DNA of 64,000 nucleotides from Phallusia mammillata (taxonomy: Eukaryota), in NCBI GenBank assembly GCA_965637545.1, contig OZ281494.1, forward strand, positions 32,488,001 through 32,552,000. The letters run 5' to 3'. Shown piece by piece: positions 36,501 through 54,500 of the stretch. Each line of letters starts with the position of its first letter. Within the stretch, counting starts at the first letter, position 1. Position numbers: made by a program.

Positions 36501-39500
36501 ATAATAAGTGCGTCGCCAAGCCATACCAACTGCTTAAGTAAAATTACCATTTACTTAAATCAGTGCTGTTGGGTTTTGTTATACACCTTAAGTGTTGTTG
36601 GATTTTGTTATACCAAACCCAAGTCAACAGGTTTGTAGTAAATGTACTTGGGTTAATTGCCACGCAACGGGGTGATGTGGGTTTAGAACCACCGACCTTG
36701 CGATCTTAGGGCCTTACGCAATAGTGGAAAAATACCACAGTATTGAGTAATGTGTTTCAAATTAGCCTCGTTGAAAGAGCCATCGCAGTATTTCCAAGAA
36801 AACCAAAGACAACTCAAGTTTTCCACGAAACACGAAACAAGTGTTGAAATGTCAAAGGTCAACGCTCCTATCGTAGCCAATCGCCTCCCTTGGATGCAAT
36901 TTTCCAACCGAGGCCGAATGAAACACCCGCAAAGGTTAAAAGGTCACGGCTTATGCTTATGCAACTCGGTTAAAAGCCCCGGGCGTCACTTAAGTTGGAT
37001 GAGAACAGCGAGAAATACCGTTCTCTTCGTCACGTGAGCGTCATGCATCGATGGAGACGGCCTTGCTGTGGTTGCTTCTCGTAAATCCGGCGGCTGCGCA
37101 GGCTTGACCTTTCGCAAAATCGCAGCTACATGCTTCAATAATTCGCACACGAATCGAACAGCCTTGACCTATAAAGGCTTTCGAGAGTAGCTAGAAACGC
37201 GTTAGGTATGTTTGTGTTGAGCATAAATGGAAAGCCTTTAAGTTTAAGAAATAAGGAAATCGCTGTTGAAGAGGGGGATTTAATTTGCATTTAACGTGAG
37301 GATGCTAGATGCTTAAGCGAAGGCGTTAAGTTCAAACTTTGGTTTATACCGCCATCTGTGACCTTTTCAGTTAAAGGTTATGACTCAAATTACACTCGAA
37401 AAGGAATTATCATTATTAATGGTGTTTTGTACACAAAATTGCTTTGTTTATTGAAGTTTGACAGTTGTGGTTGGCAAACTGACAGTAGCAGATTGTAATT
37501 GATTTGTGATTTTATTTTGTTGGAATTCTAACCACCAAATGTTCGTTTTGTTTCCCGTTTTATTGCTATCAGTTCAAACAAAAGTATGTTTTATTGAGAC
37601 ATTACAAAGTAACATTTCAAAATGTTGAAAAAAGATGATGATTTTTCGTAACTTTTGCAAAAAAAGTTTATACATTTGGTAATTAATCATTTGGTAAGTA
37701 GCTTTTTGGAGCTACACCTGAAAAACAGTAGAAACTTGCAGAAAAACAAATTCAAATTACTTGGATAAAATACAATGTACTAACACTTAACGACAATTCG
37801 TTTTGTTGGCAAAACACTACCCCAATTTCTAAAACATTTAAATTTTAAATCTAGGCTATTTGTTTAGGAGTTTTGTAAGTTAAATGCTAACTGTGGTGAA
37901 ATTGCACATGAAATTTCGGGATGAGAATTGATACGTTGTTGTGCGAGAAATATGAATAAGAAGCTACGGAGAATTTTACGTCGCCGGAAGACGAGCAACA
38001 CTGACGACGTCACGAGCAAGGTATGATGTTTATGTGAGATAAAGCAAGACGGTATTGTGTAACAACTTGTATTTTTTAGGCGTTAATTGTTTACCATATT
38101 TGTGGGTAATTTTGATGGTGGTAAAATACAAACTATAATAAAGTTAAGTGGTATCAATGACTGCAAACAATTTTGTAGGGCCAATGTGTTTACCAAAAGT
38201 GTCCCTTGTCGATAACAAAGCCACAAAAACATATATCAGAATTGTTGTCTGAATGACGAAGTATATGATGAAAATTTGTTGTCCTGTTTTTAACGTGTGC
38301 TTGCTGAACAACCGTTACCTGAACAACATTCAGTTTCGTGAAAGTCGATAACATTACCGCTAGGTGCGTGGTATGTCGTGGTAATTTAACAAGGTACGCT
38401 TGTCATTCAGATTAGCGCTGGTCTTCGTCAGGTTGTTGATTTCGGCCTTCTGGCTTTTATGCTCATATCGGTTACAGTTACTAGTTATGAACGCTCGCAA
38501 GACTTTTGTGAATACTTTTTCAGCGAAATGAACACTAAATATTTTTCAAAAACATAGATGATTTACATAAAATCCAGAAACGTTCCAAGAAAATTCGTTG
38601 GAAGCGTTTAAAAATCGAACAAACAGTCTATTCAACAAACACTTCGATGAAACCAAACGAGTGATTCATCTTTACTGCTAAATAATTTGATTTCCCGCAA
38701 ACCAGTAGGTTCCAAAAACCATCATGTTTGTTTTCTCAAAACCCCGGGTTCAACCAAGTTTGAACAGTTTCAAGTTGTTAATACTCCAAACAAAACTGTT
38801 AAGGCTTTGTTGAAACCGCCGCTAGTTTTAGTAAAGTTTAATAATGATTGTTACGCAAACGGCAATGTTTATTTTGTCCCGCCATTCGCTTTGTCCTGGT
38901 TAGTTTAATTCCCAGTTTTAAGGTGGAACTTTTGTTGAATACCGGGCTTTACTTTCCTGAAAAACTGGCTTATCATTTGTTCTATTGGAATTAAAGTTTA
39001 CATAACTAACATGTGCTATTTGCTTTAAGGCTTTAGTGCTAAAGGTTAAAAAAACTCTGGAAGTAGTATTAATGTTAATTTACTTAAATCCTGGCACTGT
39101 AGCTAGTTTTACGTGCCTCATGTACGTTTTAGTATTGCAAAATATTGAATTTCGTCGAACTGTGTTAGAATATGATTGAAAGTCAACAATTATTGCTCCG
39201 ATTGCAGTTTTGTATGCATTGTTACCCGATGAAGGTTGTCGGTTCAAAGTTCAAATCATTGCTTGGCAAACCAGGATTTCGAAATACTGAACAAAACGCT
39301 CCTTGACTAACGAAAGTCGTTGATGGGGGGAAAGAGTCAAAGCCCAATAGAAAGTCCCAAGTACACACTTCTTGAACGTGAAAATGAAACAATTTGAAAT
39401 ATACCTTATAATTAGGGATGTCCATTCAGAATCCTTTAAATGTGAACCGGGTCCAAAGACAAAGCCCACCAGGAAGTCCCAAGGAGTATACACACTTCTT

Positions 39501-51500: not shown

Positions 51501-54500
51501 TTATAGCGAGACCTGATGTTATAGACAAGGTGTGTTGCATTGGCGGTTTTGTGAACTTAAAGCAGGGTTCAGTCGGTACTTCGTAGCAGTTGGAGTCTGC
51601 ACAACTTTGGAAAATTCTCACATATATTTTGAATTCGGTACCATAAGATTTTGAACGCCTTGTGTTGCCGAAAACATTTTCTTACTTAAGTCGTTTTATT
51701 TCACTTTTGCAGATTCGAGCGTCTGTCGCCATAGCAACCACTGTCACTTTCCCGTCAGCAACATCAACTCTCTTCAAACACAAAACGTCAACGAATTCGT
51801 GACATCATCATCTGTACCTTCTACGTCATCATCCAACATGGCACCGTCGTTGGGCTTCATGGGCAATGAGGGTGACGTCACGGTTGCTACGCAACAGGAC
51901 TTTCAATCCGCGCCGACAAATAACAACAACACGAACTTCTGTCATTGCTGCTGTCGACGACAGTCTATGACGTCACAGCCGCGTTTGTTTCGTAACGATT
52001 TTGAAGGAAATTTCGACAAACGATTGTCCGGCGACGTTTGGCGCGGGAATGACGATTCGCCGATTGTTACAACGTCCCTGTCGCATTTTGAACTTTCGAA
52101 ACGGTTGTATGCGCGGCTAATTGCTTATTGCCACGCTAAGAAACTCCTCTCGAACATTTACTCCAGTGCAAACGAAGACCGTGAATGCGATTTTGTTTCA
52201 ACAATCCCACGTGATGAGAACCAACACTTCGGGGCCGGACTACATTCCCGCGCCGGTTTTCGGGACTCGATCCGCGGCGATAGCGACTTTATTTCCACTG
52301 GGGTCTCGGACGCCGCACAAGTGCTTTGTCATTTGGCTGGAGTGTTTGAAACCGTGGAAGAATGCCCTTGGTACTGCGGCGCCATGACGGGCCAGGAGGC
52401 CAAGATAAGACTCCGTTCAACCCCGCCTGGGACCTTCCTGCTGCGCGACAGCAGTGACTCACGGTAAGATTAAGTTTAAGATTTTGTAAGAGTTTAGAAT
52501 TAAGCACACATGAAATCCCATTAGTGGAAAGTCTGTTAAAAGTTTAAATGAATGCGAAATATGACCAAAAAGGTTTCCCTGTAAACACATTTTTAACTTT
52601 TAAAGGAAGCACACAGTTTTGGTAAAGTGTGTGCGTAAAAATAGGTTTGAAAATGTGTAAGGATCGGTGAAAATCGATTAAAAAACACTGTCAAGCAAAA
52701 TTTGCCTATAAATGAGTCCGGTATGCGCTATTCGATTAGGAAAAACAAAAACATTACCAAATAAGAACGCAAAATGAAAAATATGTTTAAAAAATTCTAG
52801 TTCGGAAAACAAAGTTTGAAGTTAACCAGTTATGACAGTAGCCAAAAACGTAAATTGGAGCGCTTTCCCGTTGCATATAAAAGTCACGTTTTCAACGAAC
52901 CACCTTTGTCTCGTAGTCGGACAGATCTTTTTTTAAACCATAGTAACCTCTACTTCGCGGAACTTTCGGCCACTTTGTGCAAGAGCTGAGTGAGAGTTTT
53001 CTAGGAAATGGACCGCCTGCGGTTTAGAATGCCGCGTTTGTTAGAAGGTCTGTTGCCATGACGTAAATCTATGTCCAAACGGTTTTAGAATATCAAGGCG
53101 ATTCCTTGTTAGAGGATGCCAATTTAAATTTTTCATTAGAGTTTGAAGCCCAACAAGACAGAGTCGCATTAAATACAACATAGGCAATCCCAAGAATCAA
53201 AAGTTTCTTGCAAGACGTTTTTCCCTCTCAAAGCCTTTGGTATTTAAGAAAGGAATAAATTAACAAAATATTATGTACCTGATTAAAACCGACCATTAGG
53301 TCCTGGTCTATTTATAATTTTTGAAATTAAAATCCCTAACCCAAATGGTTACAGTACCTGAATCAAAGGCAACATGCTCCAATTGGTAAAGCTCTCTTAA
53401 AACAGTGGCTAAAACTTCTAAAATGAGCACCACAGAGCCGTTTTTTTCGATAGGGTTGTCCCTTCTAAAAATATGCGCCTGTGGTTTCGCCAAGTTGTGA
53501 TTAGGGTTTGTCATTGCTGAGTTCAGGATGGAAAGCTTGATTTTATCGGTTTAAGTTGCCTCAAATCGCAAACATTGCGGTTGTGTCTTCTAGGAATAAA
53601 CCAGCAAATGTTCACAGCGTATAGAAGCGCCTAAGTCAAAGTTTTTTTTAGGGTATTATAAATATGAAACTTTTTTAAACGATTTGGGGTTAGTGTGTCA
53701 AAGAATCATGGTGGCAAAACTTGTGTTTAAAAGCTGTCAAGAAAAAAACGAGAAACGGTTCATAGAACGTTGGCTTTAAAACTAGGCATTTGTAATGCAA
53801 AAGCGTATGTAGGCAATTGTAAATTTGAAAAAAAAACATAATATCCCCAAGATAGGCAGTAAATCTGATCCCAGGTGGTTAGTTGTACAGCCGATTGCTT
53901 GAAATTAAACGTTTAAGCGCGATAAAACGGATCAGTTTTGTGTCAAAAAGCCAGAAAACGATTAATCTAAATATACATTGCAGAAAAATCGAAATTGACA
54001 CGTCATGTATGGACATTATCAATATGCGTAATCCGACGTTTTCCAAGAACGGTTGCATATGTTTCCAAATTCTGGACCGATTAGGAAATTTTGGTGTGAA
54101 TATAGACGCGTATCCAGTCAAGGAGTGGGAATTAATATGGTGAGCAGCTTGGCTCCTTACTAGGAAACCCGATTCATAGGCCGTAAATATTGCGAAAACG
54201 TTCGAGAATAATTCCTTCCACTTGTCCACAAAGGTCGCACGCAATGGGGAGAGCGAAGCACTAAATGTCCCGCGCTCATATCACGAGCGTGACCTTGAAA
54301 TGATCTCAAGGTCACTTCTCTCTGATCGACGTCCAGCTTTCAACGTAAAACATCGACACCGCGCTGTTGCTCTCACGTTTTAAAAATTTCGAACTTTTTT
54401 CCTGGAACGCCGATATGTCGCACCTGACATTTGTTCCAGTTTTACGAAGTCGCCCGCGGTTTTAAGTCGCGTCTTCCTTTTCAGTTGCAGAAAGTGGTGA

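What the first reader, a model, noticed from the sequence alone, without database searches (positions are those of the whole stretch)
37952..52380. CISH/SOCS2-type SOCS with an unusually long Cys/His-rich N-terminus (about 570 aa)
Established: vertebrate CISH and SOCS1-3 have short N-termini, while long extensions typify SOCS4-7. Seen in the sequence: the ESS helix, the GATSIRI strand, the PEST-like insert and termination right after YPYPI are CISH/SOCS2-like. The phase-compatible upstream exons add a basic start (MNKKLRRILRRRK, NLS-like), a long low-complexity region and Cys/His clusters (DDCSCDH, HCQCDCCHCD, NFCHCCCRR, RHSNHCH). Inference: these could be metal-binding or palmitoylation modules on a lineage-specific SOCS architecture. 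A shorter isoform could start at the good-context ATG at 51838 (aacATGg, MAPSLG…).
Basis: partly seen in the sequence, partly recalled or inferred. Interest (0 to 1): 0.65.

Follow-up and report, generated by a model that had tools for sequence, protein, structure and literature searches.

The report
Sea-squirt SOCS gene, long N-terminus
This is the already-annotated sea-squirt (Phallusia mammillata) copy of the ancestral SOCS1/2/3/CIS brake on cytokine signalling; its very long, cysteine/histidine-rich front part is real, is shared with other sea squirts, and has no known function.

Summary
The window is ascidian, not human.

The C-terminal 225 aa are ESS + SH2 + SOCS box. They lie closest to SOCS2, then SOCS1/3, then SOCS6/4.

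The 579-aa N-terminus is not a model artefact. Ciona intestinalis (696 aa) and Clavelina lepadiformis (913 aa) have the same architecture, with conserved islands including M[NK]KK[LI]RR, DWGW, LFTIxDED..RPR[IV]LEF and HFxLS..YAxLIAxC. Two Cys/His-rich segments (12-28% C+H) flank the LFTI..LEF motif.

Nothing supports a folded metal-binding domain. There is no Pfam hit, no invariant Cys/His column in the five-way alignment, and AlphaFold2 pLDDT is below 50 for residues 12-498 on a shallow alignment.

The gene is known. Its ascidian-specific N-terminal extension is uncharacterised, and I found nothing on it in the searchable literature. Metal binding, palmitoylation and the short isoform from ATG 51838 remain untested.

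The parts
37952..38020 (+). Coding exon 1 (aa 1-23, MNKKLRRILRRRKTSNTDDVTSK); start codon 37952; donor GT at 38021; phase 0
   Evidence: In-frame TGA at 37922. Identical to aa 1-23 of P0005. The N-terminal basic motif M[NK]KK[LI]RR[IL]L is shared with Ciona and Clavelina. AlphaFold2 predicts a helix at aa 3-10, pLDDT about 59.
43294..44305 (+). Coding exon 2 (aa 24-360 plus the first base of codon 361): acidic/polar region, DWGW, first Cys/His-rich segment, LFTI..LEF motif, start of the second Cys/His-rich segment
   Evidence: Longest stop-free frame of the window. No Pfam family at E<=1. Only 4 relatives among 1.84 billion representatives.
43858..43869 (+). DWGW motif (aa 212-215)
   Evidence: W213 and G214 are invariant in 5 of 5 sequences of alignment A1.
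43870..44124 (+). Cys/His-rich segment 1 (aa 216-300; includes DDCSCDH at 43897-43917)
   Evidence: The DWGW-to-LFTI interval counted (aa 212-300) is 12.4% C+H here and 16-22% in the four orthologous sequences. No invariant C/H column. pLDDT < 50.
44125..44181 (+). Most conserved N-terminal motif LFTIVDEDALERRPRILEF (aa 301-319)
   Evidence: F302, T303, I304, D306, E307, D308, P314, R315, L317, E318 and F319 are invariant in 5 of 5. No C/H in any orthologue.
44182..44305 (+). Cys/His-rich segment 2, first half (aa 320-360; HCQCDCCHCD at 44233-44262)
   Evidence: The LEF-to-MxPS interval (aa 317-402) is 16.3% C+H here, 16.0% in Clavelina and 28.3% in Ciona. A local realignment shows one column with Cys in 5 of 5.
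51713..52463 (+). Coding exon 3 (last two bases of codon 361, aa 362-610, first two bases of codon 611)
   Evidence: 100% identical to P0005 over 249 aa. Pfam SH2 at exon residues 219-247.
51715..51837 (+). Cys/His-rich segment 2, second half (aa 362-402; RHSNHCH at 51727-51747)
51838..51858 (+). MAPSLGF (aa 403-409); internal ATG in aacATGg context, candidate start of a 382-aa short isoform
   Evidence: M, P and S are conserved in Ciona (MPPSLAF) and Clavelina (MAPSVGF). Use as a start codon was not tested.
51934..51960 (+). NFCHCCCRR cluster (aa 435-443)
   Evidence: Ciona has SSCCRR and C. savignyi has PCCRARCC at the matching place; Clavelina has only one Cys there.
52084..52143 (+). HFELSKRLYARLIAYCHAKK (aa 485-504), conserved predicted helix
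   Evidence: HFxLSxxxYAxLIAxC is shared by Ciona, C. savignyi and Clavelina. AlphaFold2 predicts a helix at 490-515, pLDDT about 47-50.
52309..52365 (+). Extended SH2 subdomain (ESS) helix (aa 560-578)
   Evidence: Aligns with residues 3-22 of SOCS2 chains. AlphaFold2 helix at 552-568. Invariant in four ascidian sequences: A..C.LA.V..TVEEC.
52369..52463 (+). SH2 domain, first part (aa 580-610, WYCG...FLLRDSSDS); the intron splits the codon of R611
   Evidence: Pfam SH2. The Ciona UniRef model P0012 stops at the same ...DSADPR, which fits a shared intron position.
58789..59173 (+). SH2 domain, second part, with two insertions relative to SOCS2 (aa 611-739; GATSIRI at 58823-58843)
   Evidence: 84 residues lie between the two stretches aligned to SOCS2, against 36 in SOCS2.
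59174..59287 (+). SOCS box (aa 740-777): SLQQISRACI (BC-box-like) and LPLPAVLKKYV (Cul5-box-like)
   Evidence: Pfam SOCS_box, E 1.9e-09 on exon 4 and 9.4e-09 on P0005. Aligns with SOCS2 residues 119-168.
59288..59311 (+). C-terminal RKYPYPI and the stop codon (59309-59311)
   Evidence: Query residue 172 of 173 aligns with residue 168 of the 169-residue SOCS2 chain.

Best explanation
The region is the 5' two-thirds of the single SOCS1/2/3/CIS gene of the ascidian Phallusia mammillata. The gene has four coding exons over 21.4 kb (37952-59311, + strand) and encodes 784 aa.

Shown: the C-terminal 225 aa form an ESS helix, an SH2 domain with the FLLRDSS phosphotyrosine-binding arginine motif, and a SOCS box that ends at the same point as SOCS2.

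Inferred from family knowledge: the protein acts like vertebrate SOCS2/CIS. It docks on phosphotyrosines of an activated receptor or JAK, and through its SOCS box it recruits Elongin B/C-Cullin5-Rbx2 to ubiquitinate them. This closes a JAK/STAT negative-feedback loop.

Shown: the 579-aa N-terminus is a genuine extension shared among ascidians. Its sequence evolves fast, but it has six or seven short conserved islands and two segments whose Cys/His richness is conserved in place rather than residue by residue.

Inferred: the N-terminus is mostly intrinsically disordered and works as a string of short linear motifs. These would localise the ligase (a basic N-terminal helix as NLS or membrane-binding element) and recruit partners or extra substrates. 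That makes it analogous in role, not homologous, to the long N-termini of SOCS4-7. The Cys/His-rich stretches may add low-specificity metal or redox sensitivity.
For: Identity and model: the exon 3 translation is 100% identical over 249 aa to P0005, a 784-aa protein with Pfam SH2 + SOCS_box, named 'SOCS1/2/3/CIS suppressor of cytokine signaling [Phallusia mammillata]'. The four exon translations match P0005 at aa 1, 24, 362 and 612.

Class: exons 3 and 4 each hit SOCS2 chains best in the PDB. An ascidian profile of ESS + SH2 only gives SOCS2 81 bits, SOCS1 67 and 54 (two chains), SOCS3 62-63, SOCS6 58, p85 nSH2 53 and SOCS4 42. All 8 named non-tunicate hits of the Ciona SH2-SOCS-box search are 'SOCS2-like' (3 scallops) or 'CISH-like' (5 fish-type clusters, of which 4 are named fish). 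The literature names the sea-squirt gene socs1/socs2/socs3/cish as the pre-duplication form (PMC3296744; PMC3670263; passages only).

N-terminus is real and conserved: Ciona intestinalis NP_001071822.1/BAE06701.1 (696 aa) and Clavelina lepadiformis CAK8695562.1 (913 aa) have SH2 at 502 and 688, and share the motifs. Two unnamed ORF-type proteins (P0007 at 60% identity, and P0009) cover exon 2. They read through at the same acceptor and donor places (..FQ|K.. and ..YE|G / ..ER|G). 19 columns are invariant in 5 of 5, and 11 of these lie in the LFTI..LEF motif.

Cys/His enrichment is localised to the two flanks of that motif in every orthologue.

Disorder: pLDDT is below 50 for residues 12-498, against 71-79 for the SH2 core. 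The N-terminus is 30% S/T/N/Q and 27% charged. No Pfam family matched, and no PDB match had its best stretch outside profile positions 523-638 (60 of 61 rows shown).
Against: No transcript data for Phallusia could be consulted. I could not check whether the public record rests on cDNA or on a gene model.

The class assignment rests on similarity ranking, hit names and literature, not on a tree. SOCS6 (58 bits) is not far below SOCS3 (62-63).

The disorder call rests on an alignment of only 5 sequences, and AlphaFold2 often gives low confidence with such shallow input. Even the SOCS box reached only about 66-69.

No function of any N-terminal motif was tested, and none matched a known domain. 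The 'linear-motif scaffold' reading is therefore an inference from composition and conservation pattern.

The conserved local Cys/His richness is not explained by a pure disordered-linker model.
Confidence: 0.8

Rival explanations
1. The Cys/His clusters form one or more structured zinc-binding (or other metal-binding) modules, so the N-terminus contains a new small metal-binding domain flanking the LFTI..LEF motif.
For: C+H reaches 12-22% (DWGW to LFTI) in 5 of 5 sequences. From LEF to MxPS it reaches 16-28% in 3 of 3 full-length sequences. In the local realignment, one column after LEF holds Cys in 5 of 5 and a nearby column holds His in 4 of 5. Several other columns have C/H in 3-4 of 5. 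N-terminal Cys content is 4.2-4.8% in all five, against 1.8-2.6% in the SH2-SOCS part.
Against: None of the 19 invariant columns of A1 is a Cys or His. Spacing of the clusters differs between species. There is no Pfam match at E<=0.1 in any of the five. pLDDT is 25-35 across aa 216-402. The Atlas feature search gave no usable hit.
Confidence: 0.15
2. The Cys clusters (CCHC, CHCCCRR next to basic residues) are S-palmitoylation sites. Together with the basic N-terminal helix they tether the SOCS protein to membranes near receptors.
For: CC(C)RR-type clusters are seen in Phallusia (NFCHCCCRR), Ciona (SSCCRR) and C. savignyi (PCCRARCC). A basic N-terminal motif is conserved in 3 of 3 full-length proteins.
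Against: Clavelina has only a single Cys at the matching place. No prediction or assay was run. Cys-rich disordered stretches are not specific for acylation.
Confidence: 0.1
3. The main product is a short isoform starting at ATG 51838 (MAPSLGF..., 382 aa). It would be made from an internal promoter in intron 2, and the long form would be a minor or stage-specific isoform.
For: The context aacATGg is good. The Met is conserved in 3 of 3 full-length orthologues. N-terminal SOCS2 isoforms exist in Lepidoptera (PMC13206853, passages).
Against: No transcript evidence was available. The Ciona cluster members are 696-697 aa, apart from the 533-aa model cut off inside the SH2 domain. The 315-aa C. savignyi model does not start at this motif. 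Conservation of exons 1-2 across ascidians shows the long form is under selection. The conserved Met may simply be part of a motif.
Confidence: 0.15
4. Gene-model artefact: exons 1-2 belong to a separate upstream gene or a decayed element and were wrongly fused to a short SOCS2-like gene.
For: Exon 2 has no detectable domain. Introns are long (5.3 and 7.4 kb). The only direct evidence for the junctions is phase compatibility plus a database model.
Against: The same N-terminus-to-SH2 architecture appears in three species' records. These include a Ciona NP_/BAE record; such accession types normally stem from mRNA (recalled, not checked). Motifs are conserved on both sides of each junction. Exon composition is the same. 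There is no stop codon, and the phases are exact.
Confidence: 0.03

Closest known systems
Ciona intestinalis 'suppressor of cytokine signaling' (NP_001071822.1 / BAE06701.1 / Q4H2S6, 696 aa) and Clavelina lepadiformis CAK8695562.1 (913 aa)
   Same: Orthologous architecture: basic N-terminal motif, LPxLL..PN.Y, DWGW, LFTIxDED..RPR[IV]LEF, MxPS, HFxLS..YAxLIAxC, ESS, SH2, SOCS box, and a YPYP[IV] end. Two Cys/His-rich segments sit in the same places.
   Different: Only 36-37% identity overall to the Phallusia protein. N-terminal lengths are 501, 579 and 687 aa. The Cys/His positions and cluster spacing differ.
Vertebrate SOCS2 and CISH (and, more distantly, SOCS1 and SOCS3)
   Same: ESS + SH2 + SOCS box. 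SOCS2 is the best PDB match for both exons and both profiles. The protein ends one residue from where the SOCS2 chain ends. The BC-box-like and LPLP Cul5-box-like motifs align. The expected mechanism is the same: phosphotyrosine docking plus CRL5 recruitment (family knowledge).
   Different: The N-terminus is 579 aa, against a few tens of residues in these proteins (family knowledge; the fish CISH-like and scallop SOCS2-like hits of 212-249 aa fit this). About 48 extra residues lie in the C-terminal half of the SH2 domain. The gene is the pre-duplication co-orthologue of all four, not of one (PMC3296744, PMC3670263). No KIR-like conservation is seen upstream of the ESS.
SOCS4-7 long N-termini (SOCS4/5 NTCR, SOCS5 JAK-interaction region)
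   Same: Long, largely disordered N-terminal regions with short conserved islands placed ahead of SH2-SOCS box. This is an analogy of layout (PMC3670263, passage, cites the NTCR of SOCS4/5).
   Different: No sequence relationship was detected. Only SH2 and SOCS_box Pfam families match. The SH2 domain is less similar to SOCS6/4 than to SOCS2/1/3. There is no C-terminal extension after the SOCS box.
Lepidopteran SOCS2 long/short isoforms (Bombyx SOCS2L / SOCS2S)
   Same: An invertebrate SOCS2-type gene whose products differ at the N-terminus.
   Different: Per that paper the isoforms differ 'only in a short N-terminal region', with SH2 arginines at 123 versus 142. That is not an extension of hundreds of residues, and no Cys/His richness is reported in the passages read.

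Membership tests
SOCS family (SH2 + SOCS box adaptor of Cullin5 ligases) | Central SH2 domain with the phosphotyrosine-binding arginine (FLxRDS motif) | tested here: met
   Pfam SH2: E 1e-05 on exon 3 alone and 8.8e-08 on P0005 at aa 580-634. FLLRDSS at aa 602-608 aligns with FLIRDSS of SOCS2. The meaning of the motif is recalled family knowledge.
SOCS family (SH2 + SOCS box adaptor of Cullin5 ligases) | C-terminal SOCS box with Elongin BC box and Cul5 box | tested here: met
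   Pfam SOCS_box E 1.9e-09, 38 bits against a cut-off of 23.5. SLQQISRACI and LPLPAVLKKYV align with SLQHLCRLTI and LPLPTRLKDYL of SOCS2. Binding to Elongin B/C or Cul5 was not tested.
SOCS family (SH2 + SOCS box adaptor of Cullin5 ligases) | Extended SH2 subdomain (ESS) helix directly N-terminal of the SH2 domain | tested here: met
   Exon 3 residues 202-249 align with SOCS2 chain residues 3-50. AlphaFold2 predicts a helix at 552-568, but at low pLDDT of 37-43. The stretch is invariant in four ascidian sequences.
SOCS1/2/3/CIS subgroup | SH2 domain nearer to SOCS1-3/CIS than to SOCS4-7 | tested here: met
   SH2-only profile: SOCS2 81 bits, SOCS1 67, SOCS3 63, SOCS6 58, SOCS4 42. Named non-tunicate hits are all SOCS2-like or CISH-like. 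This is a similarity ranking, not a tree. No CISH, SOCS5 or SOCS7 chain appeared in the lists.
SOCS1/2/3/CIS subgroup | Protein ends right after the SOCS box (no C-terminal extension) | tested here: met
   Residue 172 of 173 aligns with residue 168 of the 169-residue SOCS2 chain. The stop is at 59309-59311. The contrast with SOCS4-7 C-termini comes from the abstract start of PMC2225448 in the listing.
SOCS1/2/3/CIS subgroup | Short N-terminus (tens of residues) | tested here: not met
   579 aa precede the SH2 Trp. The figures are 501 aa in Ciona and 687 aa in Clavelina.
SOCS1/SOCS3 type | Kinase inhibitory region (KIR) directly upstream of the ESS | tested here: inconclusive
   PDB alignments to SOCS1/3 chains start inside or at the ESS. 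The roughly 15 residues upstream of the ESS are not conserved among Phallusia, Clavelina and Ciona. No KIR model was available to score.
SOCS4/5 N-terminal conserved region | Sequence match to the conserved N-terminal region of SOCS4/5 | tested here: not met
   Only SH2 and SOCS_box matched in Pfam at E<=0.1, for the Phallusia, Clavelina and Ciona proteins and for the two exon-2-like ORFs. That Pfam holds a model of this region is recalled, not checked.
Classical zinc-finger or other known metal-binding domain | Positionally conserved Cys/His ligands and a recognisable domain profile or fold | tested here: not met
   0 of 19 invariant columns are C or H. One 5-of-5 Cys column appears only after local realignment. 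No Pfam hit. pLDDT 25-35. Actual metal binding is not testable with these tools.

The most novel reading that the evidence does not exclude
The ascidian-specific N-terminus is a functional sensor or anchor module. Its two Cys/His-rich segments around the invariant LFTIxDED..RPR[IV]LEF motif would bind metal ions or sense redox state (or be acylated). Through this they would gate the localisation or activity of the only SOCS1/2/3/CIS-type ligase adaptor of these animals. That would couple JAK/STAT feedback to metal or redox status in a lineage known for metal accumulation; the last point is recalled and was not examined here.
Probability: 0.1. Interest if true: 0.6.

Novelty: already known. Interest (0 to 1): 0.3.

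Why it matters
The gene is the single tunicate counterpart of the four vertebrate cytokine-feedback inhibitors SOCS1, SOCS2, SOCS3 and CISH. It therefore shows what the ancestral protein looked like in the closest living relatives of vertebrates.

The exact protein is already in public databases, so the finding adds no new gene.

What remains open, and was not discussed in any paper I could search, is why ascidians keep a 500-690-aa extension on this protein. The extension evolves fast, has a handful of strictly conserved short motifs, and has conserved local Cys/His richness.

If those motifs recruit partners or localise the ligase, they would be a compact entry point for dissecting JAK/STAT feedback in Ciona and Phallusia embryos, where such constructs are easy to test.

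Tried and rejected
1. Exon 2 against Pfam (0 families at E<=1) and against the ESM Atlas (no usable hit). Neither gave a lead to a known domain.

2. Profile search of the five-sequence alignment in the 5.8-billion-protein set. Only 3 proteins passed among 6803 candidates. It did not even return the Ciona and Clavelina rows of the query alignment. It therefore says little about other tunicates or about absence elsewhere.

3. Exon 3 search among longer proteins. It found only Phallusia and Clavelina and missed Ciona, so it is a weak negative for long forms outside ascidians.

4. A rooted SOCS1-7 tree was planned but dropped. PDB profile rankings were used instead.

5. AlphaFold2 on the public full-length protein with the 5-row alignment. 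Mean pLDDT was 36.5 and pTM 0.25. This is too low for a fold search, so none was run.

6. Literature. 'SOCS1 2 3 CIS' gave 0 papers; one search had been rejected for the slash in the term. One search was badly posed (min_terms 1) and gave only general ascidian papers. Ciona/ascidian/tunicate plus SOCS searches gave no paper that discusses the N-terminus. PMC12485933 and PMC11728170 held nothing on this gene.

7. Stop-free frames inside introns 2 and 3 (7 frames of 70-140 codons) had no Pfam match. There is no sign of extra coding exons or nested genes, and there are no tRNAs in the window.

8. Complex prediction was not used. The report claims no specific new binding pair, and SOCS box with Elongin B/C would pass by likeness to solved structures.

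Full report
**What the window is.** The window has no N runs. It is AT-rich (30-42% G+C). It is not human. The translation of the third exon is 100% identical over its 249 residues to a named public protein of the ascidian Phallusia mammillata.

**Checking the observation.** I read the six junction regions.

- Exon 1 starts at ATG 37952, with an in-frame TGA at 37922. It ends at 38020 before GTATGA.
- Exon 2 is 43294-44305, after an AG acceptor and before GTGGGT.
- Exon 3 is 51713-52463, before GTAAGA.
- Exon 4 is 58789-59311, with a stop directly after YPYPI.
- The phases are 0, 1 (G|AT = D) and 2 (CG|A = R).

The exons stand out from chance. They are the three longest stop-free frames on either strand of the 64 kb (352, 270 and 194 codons). 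The next three overlap them in other frames, and the longest frame elsewhere has 147 codons. The exons are 49-53% G+C with CpG o/e 1.4-1.9, against 36-39% G+C and CpG o/e 0.9-1.0 in the introns.

Window sequence was searched exon by exon.

- Pfam found nothing in exon 2 at E<=1. It found the first 30 positions of SH2 at the end of exon 3 (E 1e-05) and a SOCS box in exon 4 (E 1.9e-09).
- Against solved structures, exon 4 hit four SOCS2 and two SOCS1 sequences, which were all 6 hits at E<=1.
- Exon 3 hit SOCS2 first (about 1e-05), then SOCS3, p85, SOCS6 and SOCS1.
- Exon 3 against longer proteins returned two hits among 1304 candidates: P0005 and a 913-aa Clavelina lepadiformis protein. P0005 is 784 aa and is named 'SOCS1/2/3/CIS suppressor of cytokine signaling', Phallusia mammillata, CAB3231341.1 / A0A6F9D8V4.

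The four exon translations lie at residues 1, 24, 362 and 612 of P0005. Only the two split codons lie between them. Full-length comparisons below use that public record, not a join of mine.

**Is the long N-terminus real?** Exon 2 was scored against 1.84 billion representative proteins. It found four at E<=0.001:

- P0005 itself.
- P0007, an unnamed 337-aa ORF, 60% identical.
- P0008, a 696-aa protein of Ciona intestinalis. Its cluster holds NP_001071822.1 / BAE06701.1 / Q4H2S6, 'suppressor of cytokine signaling'.
- P0009, an unnamed 459-aa ORF.

Pfam places the SH2 domain at 580, 688 and 502 and the SOCS box at the C-terminus in Phallusia, Clavelina and Ciona. The two unnamed ORFs have no domain. 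Both ORFs read into the flanks at the same acceptor and donor places as Phallusia exon 2 (..FQ|K.. and ..YE|G or ..ER|G). A truncated Ciona UniRef model stops at ...DSADPR, exactly where Phallusia exon 3 ends. These points fit conserved exon borders.

In the five-way alignment, 19 columns are invariant. All of them lie in the region covered by exon 2:

- R35, P40, N41, Y43 and D47.
- W213 and G214 (DWGW), and W248.
- Eleven positions in LFTIVDEDALERRPRILEF (aa 301-319).

The three full-length proteins also share M[NK]KK[LI]RR[IL]L at the start, MxPS (aa 403), and HFxLS..YAxLIAxC (aa 485-504).

A fusion artefact is therefore very unlikely. What I could not check is whether the Phallusia record rests on cDNA. 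That NP_/BAE-type Ciona records derive from mRNA is recalled, not verified.

**The Cys/His richness.** The N-termini hold 4.2-4.8% Cys and 3.3-6.4% His. The SH2-SOCS parts hold 1.8-2.6% Cys and 2.6-4.0% His.

Splitting each protein at the conserved motifs shows where the enrichment sits:

- DWGW to LFTI: 12-22% C+H in 5 of 5 sequences.
- LEF to MxPS: 16-28% C+H in the 3 full-length proteins. The two truncated ORFs have 15% and 9%.
- The motif between these two segments has no C or H in any species.
- The first roughly 200 residues have 3-8% C+H.

The positions themselves drift. No invariant column is C or H. A local realignment yields one 5-of-5 Cys column, an adjacent 4-of-5 His column, and a few 3-4-of-5 columns.

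AlphaFold2 was run on the public protein with the 5-row alignment. Mean pLDDT was 36.5. It was below 50 for residues 12-498, and 71-79 for the SH2 core. Only a short N-terminal helix (3-10) and a helix at 490-515 were predicted in the N-terminus. With so shallow an alignment this is weak evidence. It agrees with the composition, which is 30% S/T/N/Q and 27% charged. The Atlas search gave no usable hit.

Overall, the enrichment is a conserved property. A defined metal-binding fold is not supported, and neither metal binding nor palmitoylation could be tested.

**Which SOCS.**

- A profile of the whole ascidian alignment scored SOCS2 99.6 bits (two stretches), SOCS1 64, SOCS3 60, SOCS6 56 and SOCS4 49. 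Every best stretch among the 60 of 61 listed rows lay in profile positions 523-638, so nothing matched the N-terminus.
- A profile of ESS + SH2 only, from four ascidian sequences, gave SOCS2 81, SOCS1 67 and 54, SOCS3 62-63, SOCS6 58, p85 nSH2 53 and SOCS4 42.
- A search with the SH2-SOCS-box part of the Ciona protein among shorter proteins gave 15 hits among 88 candidates. They were C. savignyi 'SOCS2', an unnamed 166-aa SOCS-box ORF, three scallop 'SOCS2-like' (243-249 aa), four named fish 'CISH-like' (212-214 aa) and six more unnamed.
- The protein ends one residue from where the SOCS2 chain ends.

Two papers state that sea squirt has socs1/socs2/socs3/cish, socs6 and socs7, and that the first is the precursor of the four vertebrate genes (PMC3296744; PMC3670263; I read matching passages only). 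The gene is a co-orthologue of all four, which is what its database name says.

I did not build a tree. The capped searches gave no SOCS1, SOCS3 or SOCS4-7 sequences.

**Details of the C-terminal part.** Between the two stretches that align with SOCS2, Phallusia has 84 residues where SOCS2 has 36. The extra length is split into a 20-aa and a roughly 42-aa stretch. Composition is 29% P/E/S/T and 29% K/R/H, so 'PEST-like' is a loose label. FLLRDSS, the BC-box-like SLQQISRACI and the LPLP Cul5-box-like motif are present and align with SOCS2. What these motifs do is family knowledge, not tested here.

**How it most likely works.**

- Shown: the domain set and its similarity to SOCS2.
- Inferred: phosphotyrosine docking by ESS-SH2, and recruitment of Elongin B/C-Cul5-Rbx2 by the SOCS box. 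This would give feedback inhibition of the single ascidian JAK/STAT pathway.
- Shown for the N-terminus: conservation of short islands in a fast-evolving, low-complexity background.
- Inferred for the N-terminus: a disordered scaffold of linear motifs for localisation and partner recruitment. This is analogous to, but not homologous with, SOCS4-7 N-termini, and may have metal, redox or acylation input through the Cys/His segments.

Rivals (a structured Zn module, a palmitoyl anchor, a dominant short isoform, a model artefact) are scored in their own sections.

**Short isoform.** ATG 51838 has an A at -3 and a G at +4. Its Met is conserved in 3 of 3 full-length orthologues. No transcript data were reachable, and the 315-aa C. 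savignyi model starts elsewhere. Lepidopteran SOCS2 has N-terminal isoforms (PMC13206853, passages), but they differ by only a short stretch. Verdict: cannot tell.

**Novelty.** The exact protein and its Ciona and Clavelina orthologues are deposited and named, so the gene is already known. Searches of the held library (and passages) found no paper that discusses the N-terminus of the tunicate protein. Hino et al. 2003, cited in PMC3670263 as the Ciona survey, is not in the library and I did not see it.

**What stayed unchecked.**

- Supplements were closed. File S6 of PMC3296744 on splicing patterns may bear on the intron-position comparison.
- Any tunicate genome or transcriptome DNA.
- The closed collections metagenome contigs and viral contigs.
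- The range of the extension beyond the three named ascidians.

**Surroundings.** Upstream on the + strand lie exons of a PP1-like phosphatase: Pfam Metallophos at 8640-9080 and 11255-11566. At the 3' edge on the - strand lies a copine exon, 63871-63999. Introns 2 and 3 hold stop-free frames without Pfam matches. Intron 3 holds a 159-bp tandem repeat. No tRNA genes were found.

Noticed in passing
window 8640-9080, 11255-11566 (+); probably also 9381-9659 and 12277-12546 (+): Exons of a PPP-family serine/threonine phosphatase lie upstream of the SOCS gene on the same strand. Pfam Metallophos matches at E 1.3e-19 and 3.6e-11. The GDVHGQ, GDYVDRG and RGNHE strings are visible. It looks like PP1 catalytic subunit by recall, which was not tested further.
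   Followed up: partly
window 63871-63999 (-), running off the 3' end: An open frame matches Pfam Copine positions 107-146 (E 9.9e-18). This is a copine gene on the opposite strand, downstream of the SOCS gene.
   Followed up: partly
window 57794-58269, then 58261-58304: In intron 3, about 500 bp upstream of exon 4, there is a 159-bp unit repeated 3.0 times at 93% identity, followed by an A-rich microsatellite. Its open frames have no Pfam match.
   Followed up: partly
window 43897-44290 (aa 225-356): By eye, a pattern C-x-[VM]-T-[SM]-x(3-8)-W recurs three times (CDHVTS..RW, CRCMTSQ..HW, CDVTMHSDGMDW). Similar strings occur in P0007 and Ciona. This may be a degenerate internal repeat within the Cys/His-rich segments. 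It was not tested statistically.
   Followed up: no
P0015 / P0018 (unnamed records): A member of the exon-2-like cluster and the 166-aa SOCS-box ORF P0018 (47% identical to Ciona) are both listed with a longest contig of 36,989 bases. This fits, but does not prove, the same split-gene layout on one contig of another ascidian-like genome. The source was not looked up.
   Followed up: no
(alignment A1 as query): The word-indexed profile search did not return the Ciona and Clavelina proteins, although both were rows of the query alignment. Negative results from that tool are therefore weak for this low-complexity N-terminus.
   Followed up: no
window 37860-37951: A pyrimidine-rich AG (ctatttgtttag|g, near 37857-37868) lies about 85 bp upstream of the start codon. 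It could be a spliced-leader or 5'-UTR acceptor, since ascidian mRNAs are often trans-spliced (recalled). It was seen only.
   Followed up: no
window-wide: CpG observed/expected is about 1.0 in introns and the upstream region, and 1.4-1.9 in the SOCS exons. There is no CpG depletion in this locus.
   Followed up: no
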